From assembly GCA_029838195.1 (NCBI GenBank), contig JALGVJ010000002.1, forward strand, positions 96,001 through 160,000: DNA of 64,000 bases. The letters run 5' to 3'. Below, one piece after another: positions 49,210-54,758 of this stretch. Position numbers and translations under genes: made by a program. Positions within the stretch are counted from its first letter, which is position 1; each line of letters opens with the position of its first letter. The notes below the pieces were generated by a model. That model was not told where the DNA came from. It searched no databases and was given only the letters and a program-made list of their open reading frames with translations. The stretch is from Promethearchaeota archaeon (GTDB taxonomy: Archaea; Asgardarchaeota; Lokiarchaeia; Sigyniarchaeales; SOKP01).

Positions 49210-50910
49210 TTAAGAATAATATTTTTTTATTTCTTTAATGACGAGGTGGATTAAATCTTTTTCATTCTTAATAGCATAAAAAGAGACCTTGTCAAGTAAC
49301 CCTTTAAACTTATTTTTTGGGATTTTCTCAGATCCAATAAAAAACCCTACGATTTTATGACCTTTTTGTACCAGTTCTAATAGCAATTGTTTAGAACGTG
49401 TCCAATTATAAATACCAAAATCCGTGATAATGAAAATAAGGACGTTACCTTCTGCCTTATTAACTTGTTTTTTGATAGCTTTAATTGGAAGTTGAGTTCC
49501 TCCTCCTTGGTATCTTAATAAAACGTTTTCTGCTTCGTGATAATTCTTAGACCATTCACAAATTTCAGCATGGTTAGAAAAATTAATCACGCTAAATTTA
49601 ACACCTTTCATGCGTGCTTGATGTAAAATGGCAAAAGAAGCAACAAGAGCGGCGTGATAAGGCCCCCTCTCATTTTTTACGTGTTCCATAAAATTCCAGT
49701 ACATTGAACCTGATGAATCCAATACTATTAAGAGATCCGGCATCCTTTTTTCTTCTACACGTCCAACACCCCTCTCATGTTTCCATTTCTTCGTGGTAAC
49801 ATTAGGAATAATGATAGGAGAAGTTACGATCGTGAGAATGGCATCTAATTCTTCTATAGGATCTCCGATCCTCCATTTTTCAGGATATAGGGGTAGAGTG
49901 CCACTATATTTTTTTTCATAAATTTTAATTGAAATCAAATTATTAGCTAAGCCTCGATACCACGTAGCTAGTGCATTTCCATCGATTAAAATTCCTGATT
50001 GTCTTGCGGGGGCTCCAAATTCCGAATAAGGTATATTTTTTGCAAATTCCTCCGCTTTTTTTCTTAATTCATCTTCATTGTCTTTTTTTAATTTATCTGA
50101 ATTTTTCGTTTCTAAGGGATTATCTATGATTTCTAATACATCATCGGGAATCTCCATTTCAAGCTCATATCCTGGAATTTTTCTACGCGATTTTCCTTTT
50201 AAGGGGGCCCCTGCTCCCCTCATTATTGTAAATTCCTCCTTTAAGAAATCTTTTAGATAATAAGCGACTTTCGAAACTTTTTCTTCCCATCGTGAATCAT
50301 CTTCAAAATCCGTTAATATAATTTTTTTAATTTTATTAGCCAAAGCATCGGTTTCTGGAGAAGTGAAAGACTCGTAAATTTTAATGTTCCATAGTTTTTC
50401 ATAAATGTTGAATAAAAATTTCGAAAATCTACTCAAGGATTTAAAATCAGGCATGGCTACATGTTCAAATGTCTTTTTAATTTCCCATTTCATTAAATCT
50501 GGCTTAGCTTTGTATAATTTCGTGTCAATAATCAAATCAGCAAATAAATTTACAACCAATGGAGCATGAGTAGAATGAACATGTTTATTAGCAGCATGTA
50601 ATAATTTTGCATGAATGATGCCATCATAAGGGATGATTTGATAATGCGATATTTCATGGAGCAAGATGGCGTGAAAATATTGGATATATTCTTCATCATC
50701 CTTTAGTGGGGGAACATTCGCTAGATTCATCGTTATTTCCCATTTATGATTAGGATCAATGTAAAAACCTTCTTTCCGCTTGTAATCAAAAACATATCGA
50801 GGTTCATTTAAAGGAGGGAAATAAAACTCTTTTAAAGATAGATCCCATGCTATTTTGGCTAATTTTTTGAGTTTAGCTTCCTTTTCTTGTATTATATTTT
50901 TATTGAGCAA
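49210..50910 (-). CDS. vWA-domain protein with N-terminal HExxH metallopeptidase-like domain (MoxR partner)
   Basis: ILLHEISHY; LDSSGS, GGGT, ITD MIDAS; AAGGAGG SD before the TTG start. Confidence 0.85.
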   Translation of the reverse strand: MLNKNIIQEKEAKLKKLAKIAWDLSLKEFYFPPLNEPRYVFDYKRKEGFYIDPNHKWEITMNLANVPPLKDDEEYIQYFHAILLHEISHYQIIPYDGIIHAKLLHAANKHVHSTHAPLVVNLFADLIIDTKLYKAKPDLMKWEIKKTFEHVAMPDFKSLSRFSKFLFNIYEKLWNIKIYESFTSPETDALANKIKKIILTDFEDDSRWEEKVSKVAYYLKDFLKEEFTIMRGAGAPLKGKSRRKIPGYELEMEIPDDVLEIIDNPLETKNSDKLKKDNEDELRKKAEEFAKNIPYSEFGAPARQSGILIDGNALATWYRGLANNLISIKIYEKKYSGTLPLYPEKWRIGDPIEELDAILTIVTSPIIIPNVTTKKWKHERGVGRVEEKRMPDLLIVLDSSGSMYWNFMEHVKNERGPYHAALVASFAILHQARMKGVKFSVINFSNHAEICEWSKNYHEAENVLLRYQGGGTQLPIKAIKKQVNKAEGNVLIFIITDFGIYNWTRSKQLLLELVQKGHKIVGFFIGSEKIPKNKFKGLLDKVSFYAIKNEKDLIHLVIKEIKKYYS

Positions 50911-50940: not shown

Positions 50941-52704
50941 TTATAATTCTTTTTGAATGTATTCTAATTTATCAAGAACGTTTCTCAGTTTTAATGCTTC
51001 TGCGCCACCTGAAATCTGAATGTTAACGATTGAATCCTCACTCGTTCCCGTTACATTTATTTCCATCAGTAAATCTTCTGTTCGAATTTGTTTTGTCTGA
51101 CGTTTTTCGAAAGCAGCCTTGAGAGGTTGATCTAAAGTGGGAAATTCTGCTACTACATCCGCCCATAATTCTCTCCAAAATCCATATTTAATGATATAAT
51201 CTGTAACTGTCTGCCTATACAATTCTTGATTGCACCAATTAATTAAGTATGCTCTATTTGGAAAGTCTAAATTTTCTATTAATTCTTTTCTAATTAAGGC
51301 AAGATCCTCGATATTTCCTTTTTTGGCTGCTTCACCTATTCTTGAAGCCAAGTTAGTGTAATTTTTCTCTTTTATAGCATCAACGTATGGGATTAAATCA
51401 TATTTTACAATTAAATCATTATTAGCAAATTTTTTTAATTCTTTAAAATCTTCCGGATTATTCTTTCCTTCTCTAAATTTTGCCGTAATTTTGTAACAAA
51501 TTTCCCGGTTTTTATATCGTTTCTGTATTAATGATAATAAATATTTAGTAAAATGATATTTATTTCCCCAATAAGGGGCTTTATCTAATTCCCTCTTCAC
51601 GTAATCTACCCGATGGGAAATAACATGGGGAGCGATCGTATTTATGATATTTACATCAATTTTTGGTAATCCTAATAGCCATGTCAAGGCTTTGGCATAT
51701 CGTAAAATATCTTTTGCTACTCGAACGCTTAATATAGAGTCTATTTTATTACATATGTTTTGATCTGTATTGAAGTGACATCCCGAACATAATCCCGTGC
51801 TCGGTTTTAATTCTTCAGAATTTCCTTTATCAATACGGGAACAAAGATTATATTCTCTCACGATTGCATGAATATAATTATTAACTTCTTCACTAAAGGA
51901 GATTTTATTGACATGATACCAGATTTCCATTAAATCATCAATCTCAAGAATTTTAGGGACCTGAATCACCTCATCGTACCCTGAATATTTTTCATCTTTT
52001 CCGGATAAAATCAATTGTAGATCTTGCGTGGCAGGCATGGAAATGGGTACGGATATACCAAACCGATCTAAAAAAGGTTTTGAAAGTTCAAACGTGCCTA
52101 CATCTTGAGGATTAATTGTCCCATATAAGCAATATTTTGAAATTGCTAAAGTAAAGTCATAATATTTTATGGTACCCTCTGCTAACAAGGATAATAAAAT
52201 ATCTTGAGCATAAGGTGTTAACCGGTTGACCTCATCAATTATTTTCCAGAAACTCAGAATGAATTCTCGCCATATTACTTCCTCTTCTCCTTCTTTCATT
52301 AATTTCCCTAATTTTAATGTTCCAATTAATTTTTCTTCCGAAAGCTGTGGATGCCCTCTTATAATGGATTGTTCGATTTGTTCTATTGACTTAGAGGTGA
52401 ACATGCGCCCTAATAGCTTGACTAAGGTGGTTTGGAACAAGTCGCTGAGTTAGCCACCTTTTTTTCCTCCACCATGCCCACCAATCAATAACATTGCAGA
52501 ATTTGGAACTATTGCATTTAACACGCATAATGTAAGAATCTCCGGTAGATTTTGGGATACAATTTTCTTATTTTTCTCATCATAATGTTTAATTGTTAGA
52601 CTCTGAGAATGGACGAATAACTGGTTGGCTTGGACAATATTAATAATTCTCCATACTTTTCTTCTTAATTCTTCCTCCTCTTTTAAATGTGTCGTCAAGT
52701 TCAT
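50941..52704 (-). CDS. MoxR-type AAA+ ATPase, interrupted by a 30-nt insert (predicted spliced product 577 aa)
   Basis: ORFs 52450-52704 and 50941-52440 are in the same frame. Removing 52432-52461 gives Walker A GGHGGGKTT. IIDEVNR, TINP and PFLDRF are intact. Confidence 0.85.
52432..52461 (-). other. Candidate bulge-helix-bulge mRNA intron (30 nt)
   Basis: mRNA GGUGG-A-GGAA-AA^A-AAGGUGGCU-AACUC-AGCGACUUG-UUCC-AA^A-CCACC; contains an in-frame UAA. Confidence 0.75.
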
Positions 52705-52967: not shown

Positions 52968-54215
52968 TCACTTAGGAAATAATTTAACAAATACCTTTTC
53001 TCCTTTCTTTAAACCTTCTTGAAAAGGTGGTATTTCTATAATTCCATCAGATTGGGTTAAAGAACTTATTATTCCCGATCCCTTCAATTTAACCGGTATT
53101 GCCACCAAGTCTCCATCTTCTCGTTTTATTTTAACTCTAAGATAGTTTAAATGCCCAAGAGTAGAAACAGGAACATCTTTACTCATTTTTGCTAAGAGCT
53201 CAATCCGGGGATCGATCTTAGAACACCCCATCATTTTGCGTAGAGTAGGACCTATTACTTTCAGGAAACCAACATAGGCTGCTACGGGTGTGCCAGGTAA
53301 GCAGAAAACTAGTGATTCTTTAAAAAGAGCAATCAATAAAGGTGATCCTGGGCGCATGGCAATGCCATGTGTCAATACATTTGCCTCTTCATGCATTATT
53401 TCCGGTAAAAAATCTTGAGATCCCACGGATGTGCCTCCCGTAAAAATAATAACACGTGAATTATTGGAAGCTTCATGCAAAGATTTTCTAATAAGTTCTT
53501 TATCATCCTTTAAAGTAGCGTGATGGATTACTTTACCACCATAAAGTTTTACCAAAGAAATAAGCATGGGCGTATTAGAATTGTAAATTTTATTAGGTTC
53601 TAAGGGCTCTCCAACTTCTATTAATTCATCGCCCGTACTAAAAACGCTAACCGTTGGAATCGTACTTACTTTTATTTTTTCAATGCCTAAAGAACATAAT
53701 AACGCCACGTGTTCGGCCTTCAATTCAGTTCCTTTTGATAAAATAATGGAATCTTTTATAATATCCTCTCCTTTTCTTGAAATATTTTTCCCCGGCACTA
53801 AAGGAGCATGCAAGTATACGATATTTTCTTTCAATTCCGTATCTTCTATTTTAATTACAGCACTTGCGCCTTTTGGAATAGCAGCTCCGGTAGAAATCCG
53901 AATCGCTTCTCCTTCATGTAGTTCTTGTTCAATTTTTTGGCCAATTTCAATTTTTCCTACTAATTTTAATATTTTAGGATTAGTTGGAGAGGCGCCAAAA
54001 CTATCCTCTGCTCGAATTGCATAGCCATCCATGGCAGACCTGTCAAATGGAGGCACATCTATTTTACTGAAAATATCTTCTGCTAAAATTCTATTTAATG
54101 ATTGGAACACGTGAATTTCTTCCGATGGGAGGATGGACACGTGGGAGAATAAATTTTTTAATGAATCTTCTAAAGATGTTAATTTTGCAAATCCTATTTT
54201 TCTTAATCGGTCCAT
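52968..54215 (-). CDS. moeA: Molybdopterin molybdotransferase MoeA
   Basis: PPFDRSAMDGYA, STGDEL, TGGTSVG, PGSP, LPG. Confidence 0.95.
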   Translation of the reverse strand: MDRLRKIGFAKLTSLEDSLKNLFSHVSILPSEEIHVFQSLNRILAEDIFSKIDVPPFDRSAMDGYAIRAEDSFGASPTNPKILKLVGKIEIGQKIEQELHEGEAIRISTGAAIPKGASAVIKIEDTELKENIVYLHAPLVPGKNISRKGEDIIKDSIILSKGTELKAEHVALLCSLGIEKIKVSTIPTVSVFSTGDELIEVGEPLEPNKIYNSNTPMLISLVKLYGGKVIHHATLKDDKELIRKSLHEASNNSRVIIFTGGTSVGSQDFLPEIMHEEANVLTHGIAMRPGSPLLIALFKESLVFCLPGTPVAAYVGFLKVIGPTLRKMMGCSKIDPRIELLAKMSKDVPVSTLGHLNYLRVKIKREDGDLVAIPVKLKGSGIISSLTQSDGIIEIPPFQEGLKKGEKVFVKLFPK

Positions 54216-54221
54216 TTCACT

Positions 54222-54758
54222 TCACTCTTTTTTTCTAATGAGATAAATTATATGACCAAGTTCAGGTAAGATTAATTTTTCAAATGCGAGTTTAACAGCG
54301 TTTGGAGAGCCCGGTAAAATGAAAATTGCTTTATCCTCCATTTTTCCTGCCAAAGCGCGGGACAATATTGCCGAAGAACCAATTTCATTGTAAGAGAGGT
54401 ACCTAAAAATTTCTCCAAAACCTTCAATTTTCTTTTCTAATAGTGGTTCTATAGTTTCATGGGTAATATCTTTAGGAGAAATGCCTGTTCCGCCGCTAAA
54501 AATAATAGCATGAAGATTTTTATCTTTTAATAAATTTAAAAGAACTTTTTTGATGTATTTTTCAGAATCGGGAACTATATCATGAAAGAGTAAAGAGATG
54601 CTTGCTTCTTTTTCGAGCATGTTCTTAACCAGCGGAATAGTTTTATCAGAACTTTCTTTTCCATCCAATTTTTCCTCAAAACGAGACGTACTAACGACTA
54701 TTAAGGCGATATTAATTTCTGTTGGTCCCTTTTGCTTATGTTCTTCATGTACTTTCAT
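54222..54758 (-). CDS. moaB: Molybdopterin adenylyltransferase MoaB/MogA
   Basis: GGTGISPKDIT, GFGEIFR, LSRA, LPGSPNAV. Confidence 0.95.
   Translation of the reverse strand: MKVHEEHKQKGPTEINIALIVVSTSRFEEKLDGKESSDKTIPLVKNMLEKEASISLLFHDIVPDSEKYIKKVLLNLLKDKNLHAIIFSGGTGISPKDITHETIEPLLEKKIEGFGEIFRYLSYNEIGSSAILSRALAGKMEDKAIFILPGSPNAVKLAFEKLILPELGHIIYLIRKKE

What the first reader, a model, noticed from the sequence alone, without database searches (positions are those of the whole stretch)
52432..52461. Candidate bulge-helix-bulge intron inside the Walker A codons of an Asgard protein-coding gene
Seen: the minus strand reads GGHGGGK-[KGG*LSDLFQ]-TTLVKLLGR, and deleting the 30 nt restores the P-loop GGHGGGKTT in frame. 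The RNA can fold with a 4-bp central helix GGAA/UUCC and an AAA bulge 3' of each strand. The outer exon-exon helix is GGUGG/CCACC with one extra A, and the inner stem is AAGGUGGCU/AGCGACUUG (7 of 9 pairs) closing an AACUC loop. Established: archaeal splicing endonuclease EndA cuts after the second nucleotide of each 3-nt bulge and RtcB ligates. Applying that rule removes exactly these 30 nt. Such mRNA introns are best known from crenarchaeal cbf5, where they also interrupt a conserved motif. Inference: tRNA-type mRNA splicing of a MoxR ATPase in a Lokiarchaeia-like organism, invisible to standard gene callers. The fold is a relaxed rather than perfect BHB, and the A-runs make the exact boundaries ambiguous by 1-2 nt.
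Basis: partly seen in the sequence, partly recalled or inferred. Interest (0 to 1): 0.95.

Follow-up and report, generated by a model that had tools for sequence, protein, structure and literature searches.

The report
tRNA-type mini-intron in Asgard ATPase gene
A 30-base hairpin shaped like an archaeal tRNA intron sits inside the ATP-binding loop codons of a MoxR-type ATPase gene of an Asgard archaeon, and comparison with relatives shows the gene stays under selection, so the insert is almost certainly cut out of the mRNA by the tRNA-splicing enzymes, which published work documents for only one other archaeal coding gene (cbf5).

Summary
On the minus strand, 52461-52432 is a 30-nt insert with an in-frame TAA. 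It lies between K and T of the Walker A motif of a single-copy MoxR-like AAA+ gene. About 120 orthologs lack it.

The insert is real DNA: it is present in five MAG assemblies and in contigs of two further sequencing runs.

It folds as a relaxed bulge-helix-bulge (BHB). Cutting after the second base of each bulge removes exactly these 30 nt.

- **Second lineage.** A lineage 89% identical carries an intron at the same site. All 9 changes lie in the hairpin arms, two of them compensatory. The spliced gene has dN/dS 0.06 in both exons.
- **Other sites.** Orthologs in four other genomes carry 30-nt inserts of the same build (1+9+5+9+4+2 nt) at two other conserved motifs. One shows an exon-intron compensatory change.
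- **Host.** A tRNA gene of the same genome holds the same kind of 30-nt intron. The only rpl11 gene is split by a 28-nt BHB insert. EndA alpha and beta and RtcB are present.

No RNA data exist, so splicing itself is inferred. The scan has already followed up other mRNA mini-introns on other DNA of this genome. Verdict: first reading supported (about 0.88). It is a new member of the cbf5-type mRNA BHB introns, here in Asgard archaea.

The parts
52462..52704 (-). Exon 1 of the MoxR-like AAA+ ATPase gene (81 codons, ATG at 52704, ends ...GGHGGGK)
   Evidence: dN/dS 0.061 against the L048 lineage.
52432..52461 (-). 30-nt BHB mini-intron. In order: 1 nt (third base of the 5' bulge), 9-nt arm, 5-nt loop AACUC, 9-nt arm, UUCC (central-helix strand), then AA (first two bases of the 3' bulge). 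It contains the in-frame TAA at 52452-52450.
   Evidence: The same site is occupied in L048-L050.
50941..52431 (-). Exon 2 (496 codons plus stop), starting ACC ACC = TT of Walker A. The annotated 499-aa ORF 50941-52440 starts at a TTG that lies inside the intron.
   Evidence: dN/dS 0.061. No other stop or indel.
52464..52467 (-). Exon strand GGAA of the 4-bp central helix. It pairs with UUCC at 52437-52434.
52469..52473 (-). 5' strand GGUGG of the exon-exon (outer) helix. The partner is CCACC at 52430-52426. A52468 is unpaired between the outer and central helices, which is the relaxed feature.
   Evidence: No intron-less ortholog has five Watson-Crick pairs here.
52426..52430 (-). 3' strand CCACC of the outer helix (Thr-Thr codons)
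52438..52460 (-). Intron hairpin h': arms 52460-52452 and 52446-52438 (7 of 9 pairs), loop 52451-52447
   Evidence: Two both-side compensatory changes relative to L048.
49210..50910 (-). Downstream partner gene (HExxH + VWA, 566 aa), intact
   Evidence: 116 orthologs across the class, none with an internal stop.

Best explanation
The 30 nt at 52461-52432 (minus strand) are a bulge-helix-bulge intron in the pre-mRNA of a single-copy MoxR-like AAA+ ATPase. The transcript folds as follows. Exon bases GGAA pair with the intron's UUCC to form the 4-bp central helix. A 3-nt A bulge follows each strand. An exon-exon helix GGUGG/CCACC and a 9-bp intron hairpin flank the motif. The host's heteromeric splicing endonuclease (EndA alpha+beta) cuts after the second base of each bulge. 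RtcB then joins the exons, restoring GGA AAA|ACC ACC = GGGK|TT and a 577-aa ATPase. The intron is probably released as a 30-nt circle. Unspliced mRNA stops four codons into the intron and gives only an 84-aa fragment. The intron belongs to a stereotyped ~30-nt class that this lineage also carries in tRNA genes and in other protein genes. I read it as a tolerated insertion that persists because the site can be spliced, not as a regulator. Shown here: the insert, its boundaries, the fold, the covariation, the purifying selection and the presence of the enzymes. Inferred: cleavage, ligation and the fate of the intron.
For: 1. The boundaries are set by orthologs alone. The canonical cut rule (PMC2738675) removes exactly those 30 nt.

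2. The insert is real DNA. It is identical in a second assembly. Contigs of runs X3 and X4, from two studies, span it with no differences.

3. A lineage 88.8% identical (L048-L050, three MAGs) has an intron at the same site, 21/30 identical. All 9 changes lie in the arms. The loop, UUCC and the bulge As are unchanged. Two pairs change on both sides and stay paired, and the A.G next to the 5' bulge becomes C-G.

4. The spliced CDS of G000 against L048 gives dN 0.028, dS 0.455, omega 0.062. Omega is 0.061 in each exon, and there is no other stop or indel.

5. Of about 125 orthologs in 161 genomes of the class, four more genomes have inserts. All are 30 nt, all have stops and all share the 1+9+5+9+4+2 build. 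They sit at GTFE|LS (G099, G046, G101) and RGH|PQ (G071, G046). The central helices fit each site: UUCG/CGAA, GGCC/GGCU, GGUC/GGCU. In G101 it is UUUG/CAAA, a synonymous exon change matched by an intron change. G046 against G101, which share the first of these introns, gives omega 0.056 at dS 1.74.

6. All 7 introns show 11-12 of 13 central and inner pairs in register, against 2-8 when the partner is slid by 1-3 nt. The chance rate of central plus inner pairing is 6.2e-4 per position, and 4.9e-5 with the outer helix, for three independent sites.

7. The partner gene is intact in all of these genomes, and there is no second copy of the ATPase.

8. The host has EndA alpha (Tyr/His/Lys present) and beta, plus RtcB. 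Asgard EndA is the broad-specificity (alpha-beta)2 type (PMC5829648).

9. A host tRNA gene (C58) has a 30-nt T-loop intron of the same build. ARAGORN folds that tRNA only after the intron is removed. The single rpl11 gene has a 28-nt BHB insert whose canonical cut restores the L11 reading frame.
Against: No RNA evidence exists: no RNA run holds this DNA, so cleavage and ligation are inferred. In this genome the BHB is relaxed. One extra A sits between the outer and central helices, so the 3' bulge faces an unpaired base. The first inner pair is A.G, so the 5' bulge is effectively 4x1. The inner stem has 2 mismatches in 9, and the whole-region fold is only z -1.9. The architecture alone is as common in the genome as in a reversed control, so structure by itself proves nothing. 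My ORF-rescue scan of the genome found no excess of such motifs over a decoy pairing rule. An in-frame start codon (TTG here, ATG in L048) lies near the 3' end of the intron, so a two-polypeptide reading is formally possible. The L1 loop of EndA alpha was not examined.
Confidence: 0.88

Rival explanations
1. Recently inactivated pseudogene: a 30-nt insertion with a stop killed the ATPase, and the BHB-like fold is coincidence.
For: There is an in-frame stop in the catalytic P-loop. The fold motif alone is common in this AT-rich genome. A clear pseudogene copy with a point stop exists in another genome (G074).
Against: Two lineages that share the P-site insert have diverged to dS 0.45, yet omega is 0.06 in both exons with no further damage. 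The E-site insert persists across dS 1.7 with omega 0.056. All seven inserts are exactly 30 nt, share one build and obey the cut rule. The partner gene is intact.
Confidence: 0.03
2. Split gene: the ATPase is made as two polypeptides, 84 aa plus 499 aa starting at the TTG/ATG inside the insert, which assemble without any RNA splicing.
For: An in-frame TTG (G000) or ATG (L048) sits 3 codons before exon 2. Gene callers annotate two ORFs. Purifying selection on both parts would also fit this reading.
Against: The break would fall between the Lys and Thr of the P-loop and add 3 extra residues on each side. At the other sites there is no start codon after the stop (G046 E site; both H-site inserts), and G046 would need three pieces. 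It does not explain the exon-intron complementarity, the compensatory changes or the constant 30-nt build. The frameshifting 28-nt insert in rpl11 cannot work this way.
Confidence: 0.04
3. Translational recoding: ribosomes read through the stop or hop over the 30 nt, as in phage T4 gene 60.
For: A hairpin and a stop lie close to the take-off point, which superficially resembles gene 60.
Against: No matching take-off and landing codons keep the frame at any of the three sites (read from the sequences). The stops are of different kinds (TAA, TGA), and there are two in one insert. Read-through would put 10 residues into the P-loop. It gives no reason for the 4-bp exon-intron helix to co-vary.
Confidence: 0.02
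4. Assembly or sequencing artefact, or a DNA-level excisable element.
For: MAGs can carry chimeric joins, and genome contamination is 7.9%.
Against: The same insert is in five MAG assemblies of two lineages. Unassembled-run contigs from two further studies span it with zero differences. No insert-free DNA form was seen.
Confidence: 0.01

Closest known systems
BHB intron of the cbf5 (pseudouridine synthase) pre-mRNA in Crenarchaeota (Desulfurococcales, Sulfolobales; PMC2738675 and the papers it cites)
   Same: A short intron in a protein-coding mRNA that interrupts a catalytic motif. In cbf5 it lies in the codon of the catalytic Asp, here in Walker A. It has a relaxed BHB at the exon-intron borders, is cut between the second and third bulge bases by a heteromeric EndA, and is patchily present among related species.
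   Different: The host is an Asgard (Lokiarchaeia/Promethearchaeota) archaeon and the gene is a MoxR-like AAA+ ATPase. The intron is a stereotyped 30-nt hairpin (1+9+5+9+4+2). The same gene has acquired such introns at three different sites in different genomes. Splicing is proven by cDNA for cbf5 but only inferred here.
[quoted passage not shown]
   Same: The motif, cut rule and enzymes (EndA, RtcB) are the same. A tRNA gene of this genome (G000:C58:1192-1313) carries a 30-nt T-loop intron of the same build, with loop AACAC against AACUC here.
   Different: The substrate is an mRNA, so there is no tRNA body to help recognition. The exon helices are made of codons (Gly-Gly against Thr-Thr). 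The preprint covers tRNA genes only: a term search of it found no occurrence of mRNA or cbf5.
Unconventional HAC1/XBP1 mRNA splicing by Ire1 plus tRNA ligase in eukaryotes (from my own knowledge, not tested here)
   Same: A small intron is removed from an mRNA by an endonuclease that recognises paired stem-loops, and the exons are joined by a tRNA ligase (RtcB in metazoa). Removal changes the protein made.
   Different: The nuclease is different (Ire1, not EndA/TSEN), the recognition motif is different, and that system is a stress-regulated switch. No sign of regulation was found here.

Membership tests
Archaeal BHB (EndA-dependent) intron | Two 3-nt bulges on opposite strands separated by a 4-bp helix | tested here: met
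   GGAA/UUCC with AAA 3' of each strand. The form is relaxed in G000, with an extra A opposite the 3' bulge and an A.G pair beside the 5' bulge. In the L048 lineage that pair is C-G, which gives a clean 5' bulge.
Archaeal BHB (EndA-dependent) intron | Cutting after the second base of each bulge yields the functional junction | tested here: met
   The rule removes exactly the ortholog-defined 30 nt and restores GGGK|TT. The same holds for all six other introns at three sites.
Archaeal BHB (EndA-dependent) intron | Flanking helices h (exon-exon) and h' (intron) | tested here: met
   h is GGUGG/CCACC, 5 Watson-Crick pairs offset by one unpaired A. h' has 7 of 9 pairs. At the H site h is interrupted by a 4-nt bulge.
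Archaeal BHB (EndA-dependent) intron | Structure kept by compensatory change | tested here: met
   Both-side changes that keep the pair: two at the P site, one at the E-site inner stem, and one exon-intron pair in the E-site central helix. A further change creates a pair at the H site. Only seven sequences were available, so this is counted, not modelled.
Archaeal BHB (EndA-dependent) intron | Host encodes splicing endonuclease and RtcB ligase | tested here: met
   PF01974 hits of 100.7 and 66.4 bits, plus a fragment. The alpha subunit has Tyr/His/Lys and the beta subunit lacks the His. RtcB scores 553 bits. The broad-specificity L1 loop was not examined; it is reported for Asgard EndA in PMC5829648.
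Archaeal BHB (EndA-dependent) intron | Removal from RNA observed (spliced junction, circular intron, or in vitro cleavage) | not testable with these tools
   No RNA run holds this DNA. Only DNA contigs could be laid.
MoxR-like AAA+ ATPase (host gene) | AAA_5/AAA_3 core with an intact Walker A after removal of the insert, and a VWA partner gene | tested here: met
   PF07728 scores 30 bits from residue 92 on the unspliced read-through. Orthologs carry PF07726 and PF07728 and are named MoxR-like. Walker A GGHGGGKTT is restored. A VWA_2 partner lies downstream.
Group I / group II intron, intein | Ribozyme core of hundreds of nt, or an in-frame protein-splicing domain | tested here: not met
   The insert is 30 nt and contains stop codons. 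It is far too small for a ribozyme and cannot be translated as an intein.

The most novel reading that the evidence does not exclude
The ~30-nt hairpin introns form one mobile class. On this reading they move between tRNA genes and hairpin-forming sites in mRNAs, for example by reversal of the EndA/RtcB reaction followed by reverse transcription, or by another unknown insertion route. That would make this Asgard lineage a living case of recurrent intron gain in protein-coding genes. Three separate gains in one ATPase gene, a shared fixed build with a host tRNA intron, and arms that evolve far faster than the surrounding gene (50% against 11%) would be its traces.
Probability: 0.2. Interest if true: 0.93.

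Novelty: new member of a known kind. Interest (0 to 1): 0.82.

Why it matters
Splicing of protein-coding mRNA by the tRNA-splicing machinery is documented in archaea essentially for one gene, cbf5, in Crenarchaeota. Here the same mechanism is strongly indicated in an Asgard archaeon, in the catalytic loop of an ATPase.

- **Recurrent gains.** Sister genomes have gained such introns at two other sites of the same gene, and the class also sits in tRNA genes and in the only rpl11 gene.
- **Annotation.** Standard gene callers split these genes into a "hypothetical protein" plus a truncated enzyme. The public records do exactly that, so Asgard proteomes and metabolic reconstructions are being under-called.
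- **Gene expression.** It implies that translation in these cells must wait for, or tolerate, an RNA-processing step.
- **Intron origins.** It offers a tractable system, with a 30-nt substrate and two or three enzymes, for asking how introns arrive and persist in coding genes in the closest prokaryotic relatives of eukaryotes.

Tried and rejected
- **RNA evidence.** The look-up of sequencing runs listed no RNA holder, so expression and splicing could not be examined. Read laying gave DNA contigs only.
- **Structure-only genome scan.** The fixed 30-nt architecture gave 446 hits against 433 in the reversed control, so it has no discriminating power.
- **ORF-rescue scan.** I looked for BHB motifs whose removal fuses two ORFs of at least 60 codons. 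It gave 313 real hits against 489 with a decoy pairing rule. Apart from this locus it found no convincing case. It also missed rpl11, whose first exon is shorter than the cut-off, so it says nothing about how many such introns the genome has.
- **Insert sequence in the genome.** blastn-short of the insert found no second copy, so it is not a repeated sequence element.
- **Tool-based alignments.** MAFFT alignments of the introns (A2, A3) put them out of register. The count of structure pairs and a covariance model were therefore not used, and the pair tables were computed on gapless 58-nt windows in Python. The tRNA column was mis-typed and should be ignored.
- **dN/dS against distant orthologs.** Synonymous sites are saturated against G009 and most genus g2 pairs. 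Only G000 against L048 and G046 against G101 are usable.
- **Codon bias for the outer helix.** ACC is about 22% of Thr codons in a crude count, so ACC-ACC is not rare. The support is weak: no intron-less ortholog has all five Watson-Crick pairs, but 4 of 33 reach five pairs when G.U is allowed.
- **Sequence similarity between introns of different sites, or to the tRNA intron.** It is about 12/30, which is not informative.

Full report
**What is there.** On the minus strand, 52704..50941 is one reading frame with a single internal stop, TAA at 52452-52450. It encodes a MoxR-like AAA+ ATPase: Pfam AAA_5, with orthologs that sources name MoxR-like or AAA family ATPase of Promethearchaeota/Lokiarchaeia. 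In an alignment with 14 orthologs of 575 aa, all of them read GGHGGGKTT. The window has ten extra codons, KGG*LSDLFQ, between K and T. The insert is 52461-52432. The gene is single-copy in its 4.5-Mb, 33% G+C genome.

**The insert is real DNA.**
- A second public assembly is 99.98% identical over 5.2 kb and holds the identical insert.
- Contigs of two further sequencing runs, from two studies of sediment metagenomes, span 52388-52538 and 52398-52558 without a single difference or gap.
- Three more MAGs of a sister lineage have an insert at the same place.
- No insert-free DNA form was seen.

**The fold.**
- an outer helix GGUGG/CCACC;
- one unpaired A;
- a central helix GGAA/UUCC;
- AAA 3' of each central strand;
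- an inner stem of 7 of 9 pairs closing the loop AACUC.

The published rule for BHB motifs places the cut between the second and third bulge bases (PMC2738675). Applied here it removes exactly 52461-52432 and gives GGA AAA|ACC ACC.

The fold alone proves nothing. The same fixed architecture occurs 446 times in the genome and 433 times in the reversed sequence. What is improbable is that it falls on boundaries fixed independently by orthologs. The chance rate is 6.2e-4 per position for the central and inner helices, and 4.9e-5 with the outer helix.

**Comparative evidence at the same site.** The cluster of the truncated 499-aa product led to three MAGs (L048-L050) that are 88.8% identical to the window over 2.66 kb. 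They carry a 30-nt intron at the same position, 21/30 identical.
- All nine differences lie in the two arms.
- The loop, UUCC and the bulge bases are unchanged.
- Two pairs change on both sides and stay paired (G.U to U-A, and U-A to A-U).
- The A.G next to the 5' bulge becomes C-G, so that lineage has a clean 3-nt bulge.
- One pair is lost.

With the introns removed, the two genes differ by dN 0.028 and dS 0.455, so omega is 0.062. Omega is 0.061 in exon 1 and 0.061 in exon 2, with no other stop or indel in 1734 nt. A gene killed by the insert would not show this.

**Comparative evidence at other sites.** I searched 161 genomes of the class and found about 125 orthologs. Only four other genomes were interrupted, all in one genus.

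| Genome | Site | Insert |
|---|---|---|
| G099 | GTFE\|LS (E site) | 30 nt, with stop |
| G101 | GTFE\|LS (E site) | 30 nt, with stop |
| G071 | RGH\|PQ (H site) | 30 nt, with stop |
| G046 | both sites | two inserts of 30 nt, three stops in all |

All have the same build as the window's insert: 1 nt, a 9-nt arm, a 5-nt loop, a 9-nt arm, 4 nt complementary to the exon bases that precede the last two exon bases, then 2 nt.

The central helices fit each site: UUCG/CGAA, GGCC/GGCU and GGUC/GGCU. In G101 the helix is UUUG/CAAA. There a synonymous Phe codon change in the exon is matched by a change in the intron.

The cut rule gives the ortholog frame in every case. In all seven introns, 11-12 of the 13 central and inner pairs form in register, against 2-8 when the 3' partner is slid by 1-3 nt. 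G046 and G101 share the E-site intron (24/30 identical). They have diverged to dS 1.74, with omega 0.056.

The partner gene (HExxH + VWA) has 116 orthologs in the same genomes, and none has an internal stop. These loci are therefore not decaying.

**The host splices such things.**
- **Enzymes.** The genome encodes an EndA alpha subunit (202 aa, catalytic Tyr/His/Lys present), a beta subunit (199 aa, no His) and RtcB. Asgard EndA is reported as the (alpha-beta)2 type with the L1 loop that confers broad specificity (PMC5829648).
- **tRNA genes.** Rfam tRNA finds 29 genes, more than half of them 85-122 nt long. ARAGORN finds only 16. This fits the heavily interrupted Asgard tRNA genes described in bioRxiv 10.64898/2026.10.13.758758.
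- **A tRNA intron of the same build.** One tRNA gene (G000:C58:1192-1313) has a 30-nt T-loop insert of exactly this build, with 9 of 9 inner pairs and loop AACAC. ARAGORN folds a cloverleaf only after it is removed. Two others have 29-nt anticodon-loop BHB introns.
- **rpl11 and TFE.** Earlier notes of this scan report mRNA mini-introns in other genes of this genome, and I checked two of them. The only rpl11 gene carries a 28-nt frameshifting BHB insert, and its canonical cut joins ...KALVTGG to SASGGPPIGPAVGP. The TFE gene has an in-frame TGA inside a strong hairpin. A single-copy ribosomal protein gene that needs a 28-nt removal argues that mRNA splicing of this kind works in this cell.

**Mechanism proposed.** The pre-mRNA folds into the BHB. 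EndA alpha/beta cuts both bulges, and RtcB joins the exons and probably circularises the intron. The spliced mRNA gives a 577-aa ATPase. Unspliced mRNA gives an 84-aa fragment. The cuts, the ligation and the circle are inferred. I found nothing that points to regulation.

**Rivals.**
- **Pseudogene.** Contradicted by omega 0.06 across two lineages and by the constant build.
- **Split protein** starting at the TTG/ATG inside the intron. This would break the P-loop, has no counterpart at the other sites, and does not explain the covariation.
- **Translational hop or read-through.** It lacks take-off and landing codons.
- **Artefact.** Excluded by independent DNA.

**Weak points.** There is no RNA. 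In this genome the BHB is relaxed, with an extra A, an A.G pair and two inner mismatches. My own structure-based scans of the genome had no power. The covariation rests on seven sequences.

**Literature.** Searches of the held library found BHB introns in coding mRNA only for cbf5, and nothing on Asgard mRNA introns. A term search of the Asgard tRNA-intron preprint found no occurrence of mRNA or cbf5.

**Verdict.** This is a new member of a known kind: an EndA-type intron in a coding mRNA, here in a new phylum and gene, and as part of a larger set that the scan has met before in this genome.

Noticed in passing
G000:C47:5281-5900 (minus strand; not in the window): The only rpl11 gene of the genome is interrupted by a 28-nt frameshifting insert with a BHB fold. 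The canonical cut joins ...KALVTGG to SASGGPPIGPAVGP.
   Followed up: partly
G000:C69:44376-44618 (minus strand): The TFE (TFIIE_alpha) gene has an in-frame TGA inside a strong hairpin (...STGKLACFA*VPEWFIYFW...). My cut rule picked a 28-nt placement, whereas the reading frame requires a removal whose length is a multiple of three. The exact borders are not resolved.
   Followed up: partly
G000:C58:1192-1313 (L042), G000:C40:18102-18203 (L043), G000:C54:55340-55441 (L044): These are tRNA genes with introns. C58 has a 30-nt T-loop BHB intron of the same 1+9+5+9+4+2 build, plus a 20-nt anticodon-loop intron. C40 and C54 have 29-nt anticodon-loop BHB introns. ARAGORN finds only 16 tRNAs in the genome, against 29 Rfam hits.
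   Followed up: partly
L035 (G046:C2:81549-83321), L033, L034, L037: The same ATPase gene carries 30-nt introns at two other conserved motifs in four genomes of another genus, and G046 has two at once. The neighbouring VWA gene of similar length has none in 116 orthologs. The ATPase gene may be a preferred target, or this may be chance (5 of about 125 against 0 of 116, and the genomes are kin, not independent).
   Followed up: partly
window 52438-52460 against L048: The intron arms differ at 9 of 18 positions between two lineages whose surrounding DNA differs by 11%. The loop, the central strand and the bulges are identical. Either the arms evolve fast under a pairing constraint, or the hairpin was replaced.
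   Followed up: no
window 52438-52440: The start codon of the annotated 499-aa ORF (TTG here, ATG in L048) lies inside the intron. Public records annotate the gene as an 84-aa hypothetical protein plus a 499-aa AAA ATPase.
   Followed up: yes
G074:C132:24569-25147 (L036): A second, partial copy of the ATPase gene in another genome has a point stop (VVWR*FM) and several changed conserved residues (GRHGGGK). It looks like an ordinary pseudogene and makes a useful contrast to the intron-bearing copies.
   Followed up: no
G000:C53:22042-22209 (L040): A 106-aa fragment is nearly identical to part of the EndA beta subunit on C8. It may be a duplicate, a strain variant, or contamination (the genome is rated 7.9% contaminated).
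   Followed up: no
window 49210-50910 and 52968-54758: The ATPase gene sits between an HExxH + VWA partner gene and molybdopterin genes (MoeA, and a MoCF_biosynth domain protein). In G046 and G099 the ATPase and VWA genes are about 3 kb apart rather than adjacent.
   Followed up: no
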